Assembly: GCA_964016885.1 (NCBI GenBank)
Contig: OZ024746.1
Location: 71,052,001 to 71,116,000, forward strand
Source of the DNA: Eledone cirrhosa
Lineage: Eukaryota
DNA length: 64,000 nucleotides
Reading direction: 5' to 3'
A program made the translations under genes and the position numbers. Shown here piece after piece: positions 1,595 through 21,990 of the stretch (position 1 is its first letter; every line of letters starts with the position of its first letter). The notes beneath the pieces were generated by a model. The model saw only the letters and a program-made list of their open reading frames with translations, searched no databases and was not told the DNA's origin.

Positions 1595-4589
1595 GTTCTG
1601 GTTTTATAATTTCACAATTTTTTTTTTGCCAATAGAGAGAGTCGGTTTCTAACATAGACACAATTCATTGGAATTTACACAACATCAACTAGGTAGATGT
1701 GTATGCATGTCTGCATGCATGCATGTGTAGATATGGATGTGTATGTTTTGAGTTGTATGTGTGCATGTGTATATGCTTTGTATCTGTACATGTGTATATG
1801 CAGTTATTAGATGCAACGTTTTTGGAATGTTTTACATATTTTTACTGTTCCATTAATGGATTGTACTTGTAATTTCCTAACTAGTTGTGTTCTTTCTGTT
1901 CCTGTGAAGCCCAGCTTCTCAAGATTTGTTTTGAGGCGGTTACTAACATATCCCAGTGCCCCAATAATCACAGGCATAAATCTGAAGATATAATCAGGTG
2001 GAGTATCTGCAGATTTCTCATCAGTTCTGCATAAATATTCTCCTTTTCGCTAATCTTTGATATATATTGGCATCTGCTGGGCAGCTAACTTCCACTACTG
2101 TGCATGCTTTCTTCTCCCTGTCCCATATCATTATATCTGGTCTGTTATGCCTGCATTTTATTGGGGTTTTTACTGGAACATTCCACCAGTACTCTTTCAT
2201 ATTATGTATAAATGTATGTCTTCCACATTGCTGTAGCTTTTAATGTGTTTATTATCGGGGCTATCTTTTCTACGGATTGCATTGTACAGTGTTTTGGCCA
2301 CTACATCATGCCTCATAGGTAGATAGTACCGCGATGACATCTTTGGACAGCTGCTTATGACATGGGTGACATCTTCGATGTTAATTCTGCAGAGTCTGCA
2401 TTTGTTATCACGTCTAGGTGTTTTGCTGCATCCCTGTCTCTTTTGTGAATCAGGTATTTCGTGTTGATTTTCTGTTCTTGGATTGCAAAAGCGTATCCTT
2501 CAAAGTGGGAGCCAATATAGCGATTGTTGGTCCAAGATAGACTACTTTTCTTATCTATATTACTCTCACTCTGGAGCTTCCTGGCAACATATCCATGCAT
2601 GATTTTTTGTTGATAACCATGCAGTTTTTCATCCATGGATTCACTGCGATACTGCTGAGCAACTTCCCTGGGTGTGAGTTTTTGATTATCACCCAGGGAA
2701 TACCTCTCGAGGAGTTTCTTCCCAACTCTCATGGTCTTATCTTTTTCATGCAGATAGATTTGCTCGAGAGACGGGCTCCTACGCTTTGAGGTTCGTAGAT
2801 GTTGTCGGAAGGATATGATGCGACATTCAAATGCTGTCTGGACTGATGTTAGGCCTCTGCCTCCCTGCTTACGTTTCAAGTAAAGGCGGGCTATGTCACT
2901 GTTGATGTGGAAGTTTCCGGTGTTGTTTAGTATTATTCGAGTTCTAGCATCAATCGCTCGGATTTCGTCTATCGTCCAATTGAGTATTCCAAACGTTGGT
3001 GTTAGGACAGGCACAGCAAACATATTGTGAGCCACTGTTTTGTTTTGCGCAGAGAGTTCCGATGACCATATCTTTCTTAATCGGGTGTAGTATTCCTTAG
3101 TTACGCGTTCCTTATTACGGATACCATTATAGGATATGTTCTCATCTATCCCCAGGTATCTGTAGCAGTCCTCATCAGATATTGGTGAAACAGTTAGGCC
3201 ATTGATGACAATGTTGCTAGATTGGGTTGTTGTTTTCCCTCGCTTTACAGTCATATATGAGCATTTACCTTGACCAAACTCCATTCCTATATCCTTTGAG
3301 AATGTTGTAACCAGGTCAAGATTTTTCTTCATCCCATCCATGTTCTTGGCATAGAGTTTCAGATCGTCCACAAAGAAATTATGGGTTAGGTTCGTATTTC
3401 TGTCTTCCTGTGAGCCAATGATGTATCCTTCACATTTCTTGAGCAGAAAGGACAAATGATTTAATGACAGAATGAATAATATCACAGAGAGACTGTCTCC
3501 CTGAAATATGCCCCTGCGATATTTTATTTTATCAGTGAAAATAGAGTCCTCTTTCTCTGTCTTTAACTTTAGGATAGTAGCCCAAGAAGAAGACAGCTTC
3601 TCTATGGCTCTGAAAATAATGTCTGGGACTTTAGCAAGTCGGAGGGCCTCTATCATCCAAGAGTGGGGAATAGAATCAAAAGCATTCCTGTAGTCCATCC
3701 AGACTGTAGCCATATTCCTCCTAAGTTGTCGCACCTCCGACATCGCAGTTTTGTTGATTAGGAGTTGTTCAGCACAACCCAAACCCCTTTCTTTCCAGCT
3801 GCTTGTTCATCTGTGATGATTTATTATTTTCACAGTGATCTTGGCGGAATAAGTTCAGGCAGGCTGTATACATCTTATACATCAGGTTCTGGCATGCAAT
3901 GGGTCGGTAGTTTTTGCCAGGTGGGTGTCTTTGTTCTTGGGGACCAGTAATGTTTGTGCTAATGTCAACCATTCTGGTATAAGTGTATCTCCCTTAAGAA
4001 CTTGTTGGTAGAGGTCGGTAAGATATCTCCGATAGAATATCAGTTTTTTTGTACCAGTAGCCGACAATCATGTTTCTTCCTGGTGTTTTCTTATCTTCGA
4101 GTTTTCCTATCACAGTCTCAAGTATTTCGTATGTTTTTGTTGTGGTGTAGGAGCAATAGTTCTTTTGGATTTCTTTTAGCCACACTGCATCTTGGTTGAA
4201 ATTCTTCTTTTCACCCCATGTTTTTTTTTCCAAAAGGAATCTATGTCTTTCTGGGATGGGGTCTCAGTGACACTTATTATTTTGCCTTTCATATATCTAT
4301 AGACTGATGTTTGGTTTCGTCTGAATCTTTTATTAAGCACTTTTCTTTCATCTACCTTCTTCAGGTATCGGCGTTTTTCGCTCACAGCTCTCAATTCTTG
4401 TTAGAGGGTGATCAGCTTATATTGAAGAGTTCTGGTTCTACTGTTACCAAACATCGTCTCTATTTTATTTTTCACTCTTTGTTGGTGAGGAGTGAAGTTT
4501 TTTTGTGTTTGTTTGCATGTAAGGAGCATTGTCACATATCCTATGTTTTTTCGTAGGTCAGCAATCTTTTTTCCTATTTTAGTTATATA
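1595..4589 (-). mobile_element. R4/Dong-clade non-LTR retrotransposon, 3' part (RT + CCHC + RLE endonuclease), frameshifted
   Basis: RT motifs GIFQGDSLS and FFVDDLKLY; downstream frame gives CRLCRINIEDVTHVISSC, RHD and HNRPDIMIWD...VEVSCPAD; 3' UTR abuts (CATA)n. Confidence 0.88.
2355..3782 (-). pseudogene. reverse transcriptase ORF fragment of the R4/Dong element
   Basis: 475 aa ORF with WMDYRNAFDSIPH, QGDSLS, FVDD and YRYLG; frameshifts on both sides. Confidence 0.88.
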
Positions 4590-8420: not shown

Positions 8421-8932
8421 ATGTATGTATGTATGTATGTATGTATGTATGTATGTATGTATGTATGTATGTATGTATGTATGTATGTGTGTGTGTGTAT
8501 GTGTGTGTGTGTATGTATGGATGTATGTATGTATGTGTGTGTGTATGTGTGTGTGTGTATGTATGTATGTATGTATGTATGTATGTATGTGTGTATGTAT
8601 GTGTGTGTGTATGTATGTATGTATGTATGGAGTCAACGGCCATCCAAAAGTGTGTAAATATGTATACACACATGTACATATGTATGTATATGTATATGTG
8701 TATATACATGGGTGCTACCTTTGTCAGGGCATTCTTCTAGGAGAAGGTAACTCAGGAGACCGGGATAACTCCGATATAAAACCTGCGGCTCAGTAGTTAC
8801 CGATGATGTTGATCTTTTCTTCTTTTCGGGTTATAGCTACTGTCGCTCAGAGAGTGGGATTGGCTCAGTACACAGTCTTTCTTCACTTTAAAAAATATCT
8901 TCACGCACAGGCATTGCATGATAGAATTAATT

Positions 8933-9120
8933 AATTGTTTCTACTTTAGGCACAAGGCCAGCAATTACCCAGTGCATTACTGGTACTTTATTTTATCGAC
9001 CCCGTAAGGATGAAAGGCAAAGTCAACCTCGGCGGGATTTGAACTCAGATCGTAAAGGGACGTAACTATGCTGGAAAGCATGGCGTCCGACCCTCTACCG
9101 ATACTGCCAATCCACCGCCC
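8933..9120 (-). mobile_element. full-length young SINE with target-site duplication
   Basis: Flanked by a direct repeat of about 19 bp (CATGATAGAATTAATTAAT); empty site visible near 21100-21120. Confidence 0.9.
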
Positions 9121-9150
9121 ATGATAGAATTAATTAATAATTATTAATAA

Positions 9151-9421
9151 TTGTTCCTGCGTTGGGCACAGGGCCGGCAATTGCCCGGTGCATTGCTGGT
9201 GCTTTGTTTTATCGACCCCGTAGGGATGAAAGGCAATGGTAGATTGGCAGTATCGGTAGAGAGTCGGACGCCATGCTTTGACGCATGAAGTTACGGCCCT
9301 TGCCATTCTGAATTCAAATCCCGCCGAGGTTAACTTTGCCTTTCATCCTTACGGAGTCGATAAGGTGGAGTACCGGTGAGGCGTTGGGTGGTTGCTGGCC
9401 TTGTGCCAAAAGTAGAAACAA
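9151..9421. mobile_element. inverted SINE pair (inverted 3' half + forward full copy), A-to-G hypermutated
   Basis: 9151-9236 is complementary to about 9336-9421; flanked by AATTATTAATAAT on both sides. Confidence 0.9.
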
Positions 9422-9480
9422 TTATTAATAATGGTATATCGTGCAATGGCCATACTCGATAACGAGGGGGCAGCCATCAT

Positions 9481-10291
9481 GTATGTATGTGTGTATGTAT
9501 GTATGTATGTATGTATGTGTGTATGTATGTATGTGTGTGTGTGTGTATGTGTATGTATGTATGTATGTATGTATGTGTGTGTATGTATGTATGTATGTGT
9601 GTGTGTATGTATGTATGTATGTATGTATGTGTGTATGTGTGTGTGTATGTATGTATGTATGTATGTATGTGTGTATGTATGTGTGTGTATGTATGTATGT
9701 ATGTATGTATGTATGTATGTATGTATGTATGTGTGTGTGTATGTATGTATGTATGTATGTATGTATGTGTGTATGTATGTATGTATGTATGTATGTATGT
9801 ATGTATGTATGTGTGTGTGTGTGTGTGTATGTATGTGTGTATGTGTGTGTGTATGTATGTATGTGTGTATGTATGTATGTATGTATGTGTGTATGCATGT
9901 GTGTGTGTGTATGTATGTATGTATGTATGTATGTGTGTATGTATGTATGTGTGTGTGTGTGTATGTATGTGTGTATGCGTGTATGTATGTATGTATGTAT
10001 GTATGTATGTATGTATGTATATATGTGTGTGTGTATGTATGTATGTATGTATGTATGTATGTATATATGTGTGTATGTGTGTGTATGTATGTATGTATGT
10101 ATGTATGTGTGTGTGTATGTATGTGTGTGTATATGTGTGTGTGTATGTATGTATGTATGTATGTATGTATGTATGTATGTATGTATGTATGTATGTGTGT
10201 ATGTATGTGTGTATGTATGTATGTGTGTATGTGTGTGTGTATGTATGTATGTATGTATGTATGTGTGTGTGTATGTATGTATGTATGTGTA

Positions 10292-14164: not shown

Positions 14165-17100
14165 ATGACCTCACTCAGAATAGGCAGCATAAATGCGCGT
14201 GGCTTGGGGTCGTCATGGAAGCAGGGTCACCTGCTCAACGACCTCAGGTCACTAAACATAGATGTAGTGGCCATCAGCGAGACCAGAATCTCCGAAGCAC
14301 AGGCTTTCGCACCGATCTTCGGCGGCTACGATGTGTACGCATCTCCCAGCCGTCCGGGATCGGGGGGGAGGAGTTGCTGTGCTTTTTCGGAGAGGTTTGG
14401 ATCTTGCCATACGGGCCATCTTCCTGGACCCAGAAGGTAAGTTGGTGGTGCTGGACGTGACCAGCGGAGACGGGCAAGCTTTCAGGTTAGTGGCCGTCTA
14501 TGCCCCGACAGGAGCAGGGCGGCCTGATTTCTTCCGGCGTCTGGAGACCTTTCTTGGAACGTCCCGCTCTTTAGTGTTAGTGGGCGACTGGAACGGGATC
14601 TTAGATGCACGCTGGGATTGTGTGGGATTAGTGGATAGGGAAGGAGGGTGCAAGAGTCTCACCAACCTGCTCAGACGTTTTGAACTGTCTGACAGGTACC
14701 GAATGGATTTCCCGAATGTACCAATGTGGACTTGGACAAATCGCATAGGGTCATCCAGATCATATCTAGATAGAGTATTTTGTAGGGAAATAGATAGGTC
14801 TAGCATAGGCTGTCCACAATTCAAGATAGTCAGCTACACGGACCACAAATTCGTGATCTGTGTGCTTGACTTAGATAGGCTTCATAGACGAGGACCCGGC
14901 TACTGGAAGCTAAACGCGTCCTTACCAGCGCGCAAGGCCTACAGAGACCGGATTAGCGAACTAGTTAAGCGGGCGTTGACGGGGGCCATCGTCAACAACA
15001 AGTGGTGGTTTGCTCTGAAAAGAGCAATTAGAATAGAGTCCATTAGGTTTAGTAAGACTTTAGCAATAGAGAAAAATAGAGCAGAGGGAGAATTAGTTAG
15101 AAAATTAGATGAGGCGCTTAGCAAAGGCATCGCGACCGACGTACTTGCGGCGAAATTGGCCCTTGACCAATTCTTCAATGCAAAGCACGAAGGCTGCGTT
15201 GTCAGAGCTAGGGTGCGTGCTCTCAGACACGAGGGGACGAAAGCCGTTCAATGGGCCCGAGTGGCGGAGGCGCGTCGTGGCAACAAAGCCACGATCCGGT
15301 CTTTGGTGGACCACGACGGGCGCATGCTACTCGATCCCGGGCAAATGTGTGAAGCTTTTCAGCGACACTTCGCTCAACTGTTCGGGGGCAGTGGCGGGCC
15401 GGATCGAGGGATGGACTTTAGTGTCTACCTCGACGGACTGCCGCGGCTTTCGGCCACTGAGGCGGAGTGTTGCGAAAAGCCGATAACAACCGCTGAAGTA
15501 CGGGATGCAATGACTAGTTGCACAAGGGGTAAATTGCCTGGTTTGGATGGTCTGCCCTATGAACTTTACGTACAAATGCCAGACTTGTTCGGAGGCCTCT
15601 TGGCGGACGTCTACTGCAACTGGCAACAGAACCGGAGAATTCCCAGCTCTGTGAGCCGAGGAGCGGTGGCGCTGCTGAGAAAGGATCCGAACAAGGGGGA
15701 TAACATAGATAATTATAGGCCCATAACTCTGCTAAACACAGAGTTCAAGATTTTGGCCAAGGTGCTAGCAAAGAGGTTGGCGCTTGTCGTTGGTGGTCTG
15801 GTGGGAGAGGCACAGACATGCGCCATTCCCGACAGATCCATCCACGACAACCTCCACCTCATGCGATACATCGTAGAGAGGGTAGCTAGGGAACCTGGCA
15901 CGGGTGGGTCTTTGATCAATTTAGATCAGTCGAAAGCCTTCGATAGGGTCAACCATCGTTACCTAGCGGCAGTCCTGAGGGCGGCTGGCTTTGGGCCCGT
16001 CTTCAGAGGCTGGATCGCTGCCATGCACAGCGACATCTGCTCTGTAGTGAGAGTGAACGGTCACCTTTCGGAACCGTTCAACATCATGCGCTCGGTCCGC
16101 CAAGGATGTCCCCTCTCGTCCCTATTGTACCTATTGACTCTCGAGCCATTACTGCACAAACTGGAGACGTTGGGGGGCGTCCCGCGCGAACTAGGATGCG
16201 GAAGATCCGTGTCAGCATATGCCGATGATGTCACCGTAGTGGTGTCGAACGCCAAACACATCGAGGCGATCGGCACTACACTAAGAGAAAACGAAGCGGT
16301 GACAGGAGCAATGATCAACCAGGAAAAGTCAGTGGGCCTGCAGCTCGGCACCTGGAGAGGCAGGTCCATGCCGTCCAACAGCGTCGTCGGGCGCTGGACG
16401 GACGGACCGGTTAAATTGCTAGGGGTCTGGTTCGGTCCAGACCTCCAGACGGACAACAACTGGGACGAGGTGACGAGCAGGGTGGCTTCTCTCACCCAGA
16501 AATGGGCCGAGAGGAAGCTATCCCTGAAAGGTCGAGCGGAGGTGGCTAACGCGTACATCGCGTCCGTCATCTACTACCGCCTGACCGTCGTACCTTGTCC
16601 TAAGCCCCGCCTGACTGCGCTGGAGCATTTGCTCTTTCGCTTCTTGTGGAAGGGACGCGCTCCGATGGTCAGGCGGTCCATCTGCTGTCAACACCCGCTA
16701 CGTGGAGGGCTGGGCATGCCGTGGCTGATGATGCGCAGACACGCGCTCAGGCTACGACATCTCCACCTCTTCCTCGACGGTGATCAGGTGTGGTCGCCGT
16801 TTGCTAGACACGTTTTTCCCCAGCTCGTCTCCTTGACGGAGCTGCAGTCCTGGGTCAAGCGAAGACCGAGAGGGAGCGCTTGGAGACTGGAATGCCTTCA
16901 GGCGCTCACAGCCCTCGACCAATCGGGCAATGTGATCGGTGGAAACTCCACCTTGGCGTTCTATAGGGGATTAGTGGAGGGGAAGAGCGACGACGTACTT
17001 GGAGAAACTCTAGGCGTCGACGAAAATCAACTAGCCAATCTCTTCGGAAGGACTTTCGGGCCGGGGCCTATGGACAACTTCCAGAAATCCCTGGCCTGGC

Positions 17101-17585
17101 AGTGCTACCGGGGTGCTTTGCCAGTTCGGGATAAACTTTACAGGCATGGAGGTGCCGTCAGCCGGGCATGTCCGAGATGCGCACAGGGCGACGAAACCGT
17201 CCTGCACGCACTCGTCCAGTGTCCGAGCATTGCTGACTTGTGGGTTTATGTCGAACACCTGCTGTCACGTGTAGGACGGATCCAGCTATCAGCTGAGTCC
17301 ATCGTGAGGATTGCCCCGCCCTCTTCCTTTAGCCGGGAAGGGCAGGCAGTTTTTATCTGTCTGGTGGCCATGGCGAAAGAGATAGTATGGTGGACACGTT
17401 TGAAAGGGCTGAAGACGAGCACTTACCTCTTCGGTGATGCCCTGATTAACTTTTTCAAATTTCATCTGAAAAGGAAAATCAGGGTAGAGAGGGAAGTGCT
17501 CTCTGCCCAGCATTTTGTTGAAAGATGGGTGAGAGAAGCAAGTATGGCCCGAATGAATGGGCCTTCTCTGAGTATGTGTCTGTAA
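14165..17585 (+). CDS. Tx1 ORF2 (AP endonuclease + reverse transcriptase + zf-RVT), one frameshift
   Basis: MTSLRIGSINARGL, GDWNG, YTDH, YRPITLLN, RQGCPLS, AYADD, CPRC...HALVQC; frameshift in the G run near 14362-14372. Confidence 0.92.
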
Positions 17586-17819: not shown

Positions 17820-17910
17820 TTGACTTTGCCTTTCATCCTTACGGGGTCGATAAAATAAAGTACCAGTAATGTACTGGGTAATTGCTGGCCTTGTGCCTAA
17901 AGTAGAAACA

Positions 17911-17915
<5 letters not shown>
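17820..17915 (+). mobile_element. 5'-truncated main-family SINE at the Tx1 3' end
   Basis: Central domain + tail + (ATT)n. Confidence 0.88.
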
Positions 17916-20869: not shown

Positions 20870-21990
20870 TTTCTGTTAAACCACTGAGAGTGAAGGACCC
20901 CTAGCCTTTGTCAGCGCATTCTTCTAGAAGGTAACTCAGGAAACTGGGATAACTCCGACATAAAACCCGCGGCTCAGTAGTTACCGATGATGTTGATATT
21001 TTCTTCTTTTGGGGTTACAGCTTCTGTTGCTCAGAGAGTGGGATTGGTTCAGTGCACAGTCTTTTCTCACTTTAAAAAAGATATTCACGCACAGGCATTG
21101 TACGATAGAATTAATTAATAATTATTAATAATGTTATATGTGCAATGGCCATACTCGATAACGAGGGGGCAGCCATCATGTATGTATGTATGTATGCGTG
21201 TATGTATGTATGTCAAGGCAGAATTCTAGGAGAAGGAAAACTCTGATATAACACCTGCAACCCTGATGGTATCCAATGATGTTGACTTGCTCTTCTTTTT
21301 GGTAAATATCATCTTGGTTAAGAGAGTGGGACTGGCTTTGTGCAGTGCCTTTGCTCACTATAAAAGCTTCACGGCACAGGCATTGCTTTATATCTGGAGA
21401 TCTCTCTGCACTTGTCGTCACATGGTACCATGGGCCCAGCACTATGTGTCAATAGTTGTCACAAGTGTAGTGTTTGTACCAGAGTTTTCAAGTCGCTGGC
21501 TGGACTAAAAAGTCACACTCGTTCAGCGCATCGGTAGGGGTTCTCCTACATGGATATAAAGTAGTGGCCGTACTCGAAAACGAGTTGGTAGCCACCATGT
21601 ATGTATGTATGTATGTATCCAATAGTTTTTTTTTTTTTTTTTTTTTGTGGAGTGAGAGACTCCTAATCTTCATTAAGACATCTCTCTAGGAGGAGGTCAC
21701 TCTAATATAAAACCTGCAACTTCGTTTGCATCCAATGATGTAGACCAGTTCTTCTTTTTGGGTAAATGCATTCGATGTTCAGAGAGTGGGATTGGCCCCG
21801 TGGAAAGCTTTTCCTCACTTAAAAAAATCTTCTAGCACAGGCATCGCTTGATATGAGATATTTTTTTTGCGATGATGTCATTGCTGGCTATAGGCAAGAC
21901 CCTAAGGAAGTATAAAAAGCCACGTCCGTGATGCTCATGCTTAAGTATTAAGTGATAGCATTACTCGAAATCGAGGTGCAGCCATCATGT
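20870..21990 (+). mobile_element. three head-to-tail RTE-derived elements (B 20870-21180, A 21212-21598, C about 21680-21990)
   Basis: Each has a TCTAG(GA)GAAGG-like motif, GATGATGT..TTCTTCTTTT and AGAGAGTGGGA, and ends CTCGA..CGAG..AGCCA(C/T)CAT + (GTAT)n. Confidence 0.78.

What the first reader, a model, noticed from the sequence alone, without database searches (positions are those of the whole stretch)
9151..9421. Fossilised A-to-I RNA hyper-editing: an ADAR-edited SINE hairpin apparently written back into the genome
Seen: compared with unedited copies (8936-9020, 17820-17915), the left arm has A-to-G at 9159, 9164, 9171, 9176, 9183, 9187, 9195, 9201, 9206 and 9223, and the right arm at 9364, 9365, 9367, 9368, 9375, 9378, 9383, 9390 and 9391. 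That is 19 A-to-G changes against about 5 other changes in the stem. All are on the + strand although the arms point in opposite directions, they are confined to the mutually complementary stem (the loop 9237-9335 lacks them), and none has a 5' G in the unedited sequence. Established: ADAR edits dsRNA, disfavours a 5' G, inosine is copied as G by reverse transcriptase, and coleoid cephalopods edit RNA heavily. Inference: a + strand transcript (matching the orientation of the host RTE derivative 8628-9480 and of the forward SINE) folded, was hyper-edited and retrotransposed, making edits heritable. The clean SINE at 8933-9120 would have inserted later.
Basis: partly seen in the sequence, partly recalled or inferred. 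Interest (0 to 1): 0.92.

Follow-up and report, generated by a model that had tools for sequence, protein, structure and literature searches.

The report
RNA edits fossilised in retrotransposon copies
A small retrotransposon carrying a SINE hairpin was copied into this genome five times, each copy with its own set of A-to-G changes of the kind the RNA-editing enzyme ADAR makes, so normally transient RNA edits appear to have been written into heritable DNA.

Summary
Observation confirmed. In the stem of the SINE hairpin, 18 of 63 A read G against 1 of 62 T>C, and 0 of 39 A outside it are changed. One listed site, 9164, is an ordinary subfamily variant. Four more copies of the same RTE-tailed host plus hairpin lie on other contigs. 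They carry 21-34 A>G each, always on the host's sense strand, with ADAR-like neighbour bias. The edit patterns show no tree signal, so each copy probably came from a separately edited RNA of one source, which I did not find. A later SINE insertion that would out-pair the hairpin today is unedited, as are six single-locus SINE hairpins. The same signature marks antisense SINE pieces in the 5' UTR of a Dong/R4-like LINE (12 of 30 copies sampled) and of an RTE-like LINE. Raw reads did not settle the G alleles. Precedents exist for retroviral A>G and for APOBEC edits in LTR elements; ten searches found no report for germline non-LTR copies. This scan noted the same phenomenon in two other genomes.

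The parts
8630..8932 (+). 5' part of the non-autonomous host element (host A), 5'-truncated and with an internal deletion; its 3' half matches sequence upstream of an RTE-like ORF
   Evidence: host positions 153-238 and 327-539 of the L005 copy match here. Host positions 250-539 lie upstream of the RVT_1 ORF in C016/C135.
8917..8935 (+). Left copy of the target-site duplication of the later SINE
   Evidence: repeated at 9120-9138
8932..9116 (-). Later, unedited full-length SINE inserted after the host landed (internal control)
   Evidence: 0 A>G against consensus, 52 A on +. Absent from the four sister copies. Pairs with the whole right SINE in today's fold.
9120..9138 (+). Right copy of the target-site duplication; A/T-rich SINE insertion hotspot of host A
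   Evidence: 39 genome matches of SINE tail plus host flank
9148..9236 (-). Left arm: 5'-truncated SINE (3' half) in antisense, 9 A>G on + (9159, 9171, 9176, 9183, 9187, 9195, 9201, 9206, 9223)
9238..9424 (+). Full-length SINE in its own sense. Its 5' half (9241-9332) is the unedited loop; its 3' half is the right arm with 9 A>G (9364, 9365, 9367, 9368, 9375, 9378, 9383, 9390, 9391)
9428..9480 (+). Host 3' end, shared with an autonomous RTE-like LINE
   Evidence: same 3' end follows the RVT_1-bearing element in C016 (16080-16124) and C135 (18419-18457); RVT_1 E=1.7e-17
9480..9900 (+). (GTAT)n tail or target microsatellite (read to 9900; it runs further)

Best explanation
Two SINEs inserted head to head into the A/T-rich hotspot of one copy of a non-autonomous RTE-derived element (shown from the anatomy). 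Its sense transcript folds into a stem of about 100 bp (predicted). ADAR deaminated 30-60% of the stem adenosines (inferred from the signature). An RTE-type reverse transcriptase copied the edited RNA by target-primed reverse transcription, reading I as G (inferred from the shared 3' end, tail and variable 5' truncation). This happened at least five times in cells that pass DNA to offspring, each time most likely from a differently edited RNA molecule of one source locus. The window copy later received another SINE, which stayed unedited. The structure has no function of its own; it is a record of editing on a retrotransposition intermediate.
For: Five copies on five contigs, 3 on + and 2 on - of the assembly, A>G always on host sense: 18/63, 23/63, 26/63, 21/63, 34/55 stem A; T>C 1/62, 0/62, 0/62, 0/62, 0/59; outside the stem 0/39, 0/39, 0/39, 0/37, 1/39. 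Pooled 5' neighbour U 59/99, C 21/59, A 40/121, G 2/28; 3' neighbour G 25/48, C 27/55, A 45/111, U 25/93. Published hADAR1 order is 5' U>A>C>G, 3' G>C~A>U (PMC3113232 section 9). 16 shared-but-not-fixed sites need 25 steps on the best tree against 16 for a perfect tree; fixed-margin null mean 25.75, P=0.37. 22 other changes are private to single copies. G>A background 16 of 388 is too low to explain 26 A in 80 site-copies as reversions. Controls: the 34 other host matches with a SINE at the same site show no cluster; six single-locus inverted SINE pairs have 0-3 A>G; the later SINE has 0. Replication in other hosts on the LINE sense strand. The genome encodes A_deamin domains over the Pfam cut-off on C1, C6 and C25.
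Against: Raw DNA reads did not confirm the alleles at this locus. The read lay was swamped by ordinary SINEs and no listed piece covered the edited arms. The 0.45 word share is uninformative because 104 of 271 31-mers occur in non-family loci. No unedited source was found. Counted by site, the 5'-G depletion is not significant (2 of 6 against 38 of 57, p=0.18); the pooled p=8e-5 treats related copies as independent. The 5' order is U>C~A>G rather than U>A>C>G. 11 sites are fixed in all five copies and could have been inherited from an already edited source. With five copies the tree test has modest power. Human L1 RNA showed no editing in a cell assay (PMC5224506, passages).
Confidence: 0.88

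Rival explanations
1. Same enzyme, different history: one or two edited founders were fixed and copied, with further editing added in successive rounds, rather than five independent edits of an unedited source.
For: 11 of 40 edited sites are G in all copies. Four sites separate the window copy from the other four, and three are shared by L003 and L005 only. No unedited source is in the assembly. In the Dong/R4-like family the edits are largely fixed and amplified.
Against: No tree signal (25 steps against null 25.75; gains-only 29 against 29.9). 60 of 120 site pairs are incompatible, 39 of 78 without CpG-revertible sites. Nine sites at 4/5 and four at 3/5 are what highly edited sites would give, which also accounts for about as many at 5/5 (my arithmetic).
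Confidence: 0.3
2. Assembly artefact: G alleles were put in by polishing with edited RNA reads or by consensus error.
For: No direct read confirmation here. A star-like pattern would also follow if five unedited loci were each overwritten by their own RNA.
Against: Present-day RNA through this locus would pair the later SINE with the whole right SINE, yet the later SINE and the right SINE's 5' half carry no A>G. Edit strand follows the retroelement, not the locus. Post-integration SINEs beside edited ones are clean. Two C>T changes sit directly 5' of edited G (9178 in L005, 9374 in L002), as CpG decay of genomic G would give (weak, 2 cases). Contigs of three public runs give depth over 9160-9199 at 90% likeness or more, but the table does not show which family they are.
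Confidence: 0.04
3. ADAR, or another deaminase, acted on DNA: on the DNA strand of an RNA:DNA hybrid or on an extruded DNA hairpin.
For: ADARs deaminate dA in DNA/RNA hybrids in vitro (PMC5389660, abstract). In the LINE families most edited pieces are antisense SINE with no inverted partner inside the three LINE copies tested.
Against: Here both a sense and an antisense SINE arm are changed on one strand and only where they pair with each other. Six single-locus hairpins are unedited. 66 of 67 flagged pieces lie in multi-copy retroelement hosts on host sense, and the 67th has LINE sequence downstream on that strand. That sample was partly chosen on edits.
Confidence: 0.05
4. Ordinary SINE subfamily variants or neutral drift.
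For: True for 9161 and 9164. Pairs of the same G occur in ordinary copies, and L008 has the 9390-9391 pair.
Against: Ordinary copies have the unedited base in 68-88 hits per column, with at most 6 exceptions. Non-flagged pieces average 0.5 A>G and 0.8 T>C (428 of 495). The two arms would need opposite-strand variants.
Confidence: 0.02

Closest known systems
ADAR-linked A-to-G hyperediting in avian retroviruses (RAV-1, Felder et al. 1994; avian leukosis virus, Hajjar and Linial 1995), as cited in review PMC8586724 (passage; the originals were not read)
   Same: Clustered A>G from RNA editing preserved in DNA through reverse transcription
   Different: Here the carriers are non-LTR elements, the dsRNA comes from inserted SINEs, and the copies are fixed and in part amplified in an animal genome assembly
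APOBEC DNA editing of LTR retrotransposons (PMC4866542, passages; PMC2873906, passages)
   Same: Strand-biased deaminase clusters fixed in genomic retroelement copies
   Different: G>A on cDNA by vertebrate APOBECs, LTR elements only, reported absent from 19 invertebrate genomes; here A>G, limited to dsRNA, in non-LTR elements of an invertebrate
A-to-I editing of transcribed repeats in coleoids (PMC9068888, abstract and passages)
   Same: Repeat-directed editing in all tissues, proposed as a defence against transposons
   Different: Reported at RNA level only in the passages seen; here edited RNAs completed retrotransposition
ADAR1 restriction of human L1 (PMC5224506, passages)
   Same: ADAR meets a LINE RNP
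   Different: No editing was found in more than 2.5 kb of L1 RNA and restriction was editing-independent; here editing is dense but limited to SINE-derived duplex

Membership tests
ADAR hyper-editing signature | Clustered A>G far above T>C on one strand | tested here: met
   18/63 against 1/62 in the window; 21-34 against 0 in the sisters
ADAR hyper-editing signature | Confined to double-stranded RNA | tested here: met
   0/39 outside the stem; all 18 sites opposite U
ADAR hyper-editing signature | 5' G depleted, 5' U preferred; 3' G preferred | tested here: met
   Pooled 5' G 2/28, U 59/99; 3' G 25/48, U 25/93. Second set 5' G 4/40, U 64/109. Per-site test not significant (p=0.18).
ADAR hyper-editing signature | Changed strand is the transcribed strand | tested here: met
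   Host sense in all five copies and in 66 of 67 flagged pieces, host sense set by RVT_1 ORF and tail
ADAR hyper-editing signature | Organism encodes an ADAR-type deaminase | tested here: inconclusive
   PF02137 matches over cut-off on C1, C6 and C25; ADAR was not told apart from ADAT1 or ADAD, and germline expression was not tested
ADAR hyper-editing signature | Inosine in RNA of an unedited source locus | not testable with these tools
   No source found; no RNA raw reads of this species were listed
Genomic (not artefact) variants | G alleles in raw DNA reads at this locus | tested here: inconclusive
Non-autonomous RTE-derived non-LTR element | 3' end shared with an autonomous LINE, simple-repeat tail, variable 5' truncation, dispersed copies | tested here: met
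Non-autonomous RTE-derived non-LTR element | Partner LINE belongs to the RTE clade by RT phylogeny | not tested
   RVT_1 found; Pfam gave no endonuclease hit on the fragment scanned; the clade name rests on recalled motifs
Dong/R4-like LINE (family B host) | RT followed by CCHC and PD..D endonuclease motifs, (TAA)n tail | tested here: inconclusive
   RVT_1 E=1.4e-12, zf-RVT below cut-off; motifs and tail visible; the name is recalled, no phylogeny run
APOBEC-edited retroelements | G>A clusters on the sense strand of LTR elements | tested here: not met
   Changes are A>G on sense in non-LTR hosts

The most novel reading that the evidence does not exclude
ADAR editing of retrotransposition intermediates is a recurrent germline mutation process in this genome. 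Whenever a SINE in a LINE or LINE-derived RNA forms dsRNA, in cis as here or apparently in trans with SINE RNA in LINE 5' UTRs, the edited molecule is still copied and sometimes amplified. Each genomic copy is then a single-molecule record of past germline editing, with on the order of a hundred such loci.
Probability: 0.6. Interest if true: 0.9.

Novelty: new variant of a known kind. Interest (0 to 1): 0.8.

Why it matters
It shows a direct RNA-to-genome route for A-to-I edits in an animal lineage thought to edit heavily. It implies ADAR acts in germline or early embryonic cells, and that heavy editing does not by itself stop non-LTR retrotransposition. The idea that repeat editing defends cephalopod genomes becomes testable by comparing copy numbers of hairpin-bearing and empty hosts. 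The edits fall in non-coding SINE pieces, so no effect on phenotype is shown.

Tried and rejected
Raw-read check: one search listed runs holding up to 0.45 of the words, which is no evidence. One search was swamped by ordinary SINE contigs. Unedited source: the exact junction gave 4 hits, all edited; 2 mismatches gave 2 more, both unrelated single-locus SINE arrangements; the left-arm subfamily motif gave 33 hits, none an unedited host hairpin; the right arm plus host flank gave 39 hits, 5 of them family. A source with a further insertion at the junction is not excluded. A sense-edited pattern found only 4 family copies among 31 hits, the rest weak. A cis partner inside three family-B LINE copies was not found. 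Rfam: 29 matches, none near gathering score. Rejected: reversion from a fully edited founder (G>A 16 of 388), DNA hairpin mutagenesis (six clean pairs), and subfamily variants. Literature: ten searches (listings and abstract starts) gave no report of ADAR-edited non-LTR copies fixed in a germline genome. Subscription journals are mostly missing from that library, and the Hajjar and Linial paper was not held. No supplements were read.

Full report
Observation. The stretch is a head-to-head SINE pair: a 5'-truncated antisense copy (9148-9236) followed by a full copy in its own sense (9238-9424). The + strand folds into a stem 9140-9240 / 9333-9432 (-160.6 kcal/mol, z=-12.7, 0 of 100 shuffles). 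I built a reference from 90 ordinary SINE hits in the window and fetched loci. Against it the stem has 18 of 63 A read as G and 1 of 62 T as C (p=2e-5); 0 of 39 A outside the stem are changed (p=8e-5).

Host. The pair lies in an A/T-rich hotspot of a short element (8630-9480) ending in (GTAT)n. An empty copy lies at 20875-21179. Its 3' end is the 3' end of an autonomous RVT_1-bearing LINE, and part of its 5' region lies upstream of that LINE's ORF. It is therefore a non-autonomous derivative; the clade name RTE is from recalled motifs. The genome is 3.0 Gb. RTE and Dong-R4 LINEs and SINEs are listed as recently active in Octopus vulgaris (PMC13282606, passages), which fits an octopus-like source but does not prove one.

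Five copies. A DNA search of the genome (40 of 3822 candidates scored) found four more host-plus-hairpin copies on C1, C2, C3 and C17, with different flanks and 5' ends. An exact junction pattern gives 4 hits; the fifth copy has a 19-nt junction deletion. Their stems carry 23/63, 26/63, 21/63 and 34/55 A>G, no T>C, and 1 A>G outside the stem in all. The changed strand is the host's sense whether the copy lies on + or - of the assembly. Pooled neighbours are 5' U 59/99, C 21/59, A 40/121, G 2/28 and 3' G 25/48, C 27/55, A 45/111, U 25/93. This is close to hADAR1's 5' U>A>C>G, 3' G>C~A>U (PMC3113232, sections 7-9). The copies are not independent, and counted by site the 5'-G depletion is 2 of 6 against 38 of 57 (p=0.18).

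History. Forty stem sites are G in at least one copy; 11 are fixed and 16 are shared by 2-4 copies. Those 16 need 25 steps on the best of all rooted trees, against 16 if tree-like and a fixed-margin null mean of 25.75 (P=0.37, 1949 samples). The 22 other differences are private; only three A/G columns (9241, 9262, 9355) are shared. That is about 1.3% private divergence per copy (my arithmetic), so the copies are young. Reversion cannot supply 26 A in 80 site-copies when G>A runs at 16 of 388. The simplest reading is a star: one source locus, and a separately edited RNA for each insertion. Whether the 11 fixed sites were already G in the source is open, because no unedited source turned up.

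Controls. 34 other genome matches of a SINE tail at the same host site show no cluster (several are duplicates of one insertion). Six single-locus inverted SINE pairs, three inside host A, have 0-3 A>G. The SINE at 8932-9116 has a target-site duplication, is absent from the sisters and has 0 A>G. In today's sequence it would pair with the whole right SINE (-359 kcal/mol), whose 5' half is also unedited. The G alleles therefore predate that insertion and do not come from present-day RNA. Direct read evidence was not obtained.

Wider pattern. A two-edit antisense pattern has 230 genome matches. Of the first 30 loci, 10 were flagged as clusters: 1 of this family, 7 in the 5' UTR of a Dong/R4-like LINE (family B) and 2 upstream of the RTE-like LINE sequence (family C; a third member is L016). 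L115 is a borderline family-B copy. A family-B pattern has 30 matches. In the 20 fetched, the founder piece has 4-7 A>G on the LINE sense strand, and most other SINEs beside it are clean. Sampling by a LINE motif, not by edits, gave 221 matches. 12 of the first 30, all on C1, carry a piece with 6 or more A>G, from at least four founder insertions, and none carries a T>C cluster. That extrapolates roughly to 90 loci. Over everything fetched, 67 of 495 SINE pieces were flagged. 66 have a host motif nearby with A>G on host sense; the other has LINE sequence downstream on that strand. This set holds duplicates and relatives and was partly chosen on edits. Neighbour bias repeats in 14 B and C pieces (5' U 64/109, G 4/40). 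No inverted partner lies inside three family-B copies, so their duplex partner, upstream read-through or SINE RNA in trans, is inferred only.

Mechanism. Shown: anatomy, strand, confinement, dispersal, order of insertions, and deaminase domains in the genome. Inferred: transcription, folding, ADAR catalysis, I read as G by the LINE reverse transcriptase, and germline timing. ADAR on DNA:RNA hybrids (PMC5389660, abstract) does not explain two opposite arms changed on one strand.

Comparison. ADAR-linked A>G hyperediting is known in avian retroviruses (review PMC8586724, passage). Deaminase footprints fixed in genomes are known for APOBEC on LTR elements and were reported absent from invertebrates (PMC4866542; PMC2873906). 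Coleoid repeat editing is described at RNA level (PMC9068888), and human L1 RNA was found unedited (PMC5224506). Ten searches gave no report for germline non-LTR copies, within a library that lacks most subscription papers. Unchecked notes of this scan describe the same phenomenon in two other genomes; I count them as leads, not support.

Verdict. A real feature and a new variant of a known kind. Confidence in ADAR editing followed by retrotransposition is 0.88; interest 0.8.

Noticed in passing
G000:C1:94077409 and 29 more matches; L213-L242: Antisense SINE pieces with sense-strand A>G clusters in the 5' UTR of a Dong/R4-like LINE; at least four founder insertions; edits largely fixed and amplified; no inverted partner found inside the LINE
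   Followed up: partly
L016:1351-1500, L135:1419-1569, L136:1454-1602: Third family: an edited antisense SINE (11-18 A>G) upstream of host-A-like sequence that in two loci leads into the RTE-like ORF
   Followed up: partly
L175:2511-2559: A sense-oriented SINE fragment with 6 A>G upstream of the RVT_1 ORF of a different LINE family; possible fourth case
   Followed up: no
window 9120-9147 and 21104-21132; L065-L110: The host's A/T-rich site is a strong SINE target: many independent insertions of different subfamilies and lengths at the same spot
   Followed up: partly
L005:1599-1600: The most edited copy lost 19 nt at the base of the loop, between short G/T-rich repeats that include edited positions; possibly a template switch during reverse transcription
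   Followed up: no
L074, L081-L085, L106-L109: One host-plus-SINE insertion recurs with near-identical flanks on C3, at 170-210 kb spacing on C5 and on C211: a segmental or tandem duplication, or a haplotype duplicate
   Followed up: no
window 14268-17582 (+) and 2358-3806 (-): Long open frames resembling LINE ORF2 fragments (1105 and 483 aa stop to stop)
   Followed up: no
L064:1180-2085: Tandem array of nine 103-nt SINE-derived units
   Followed up: no
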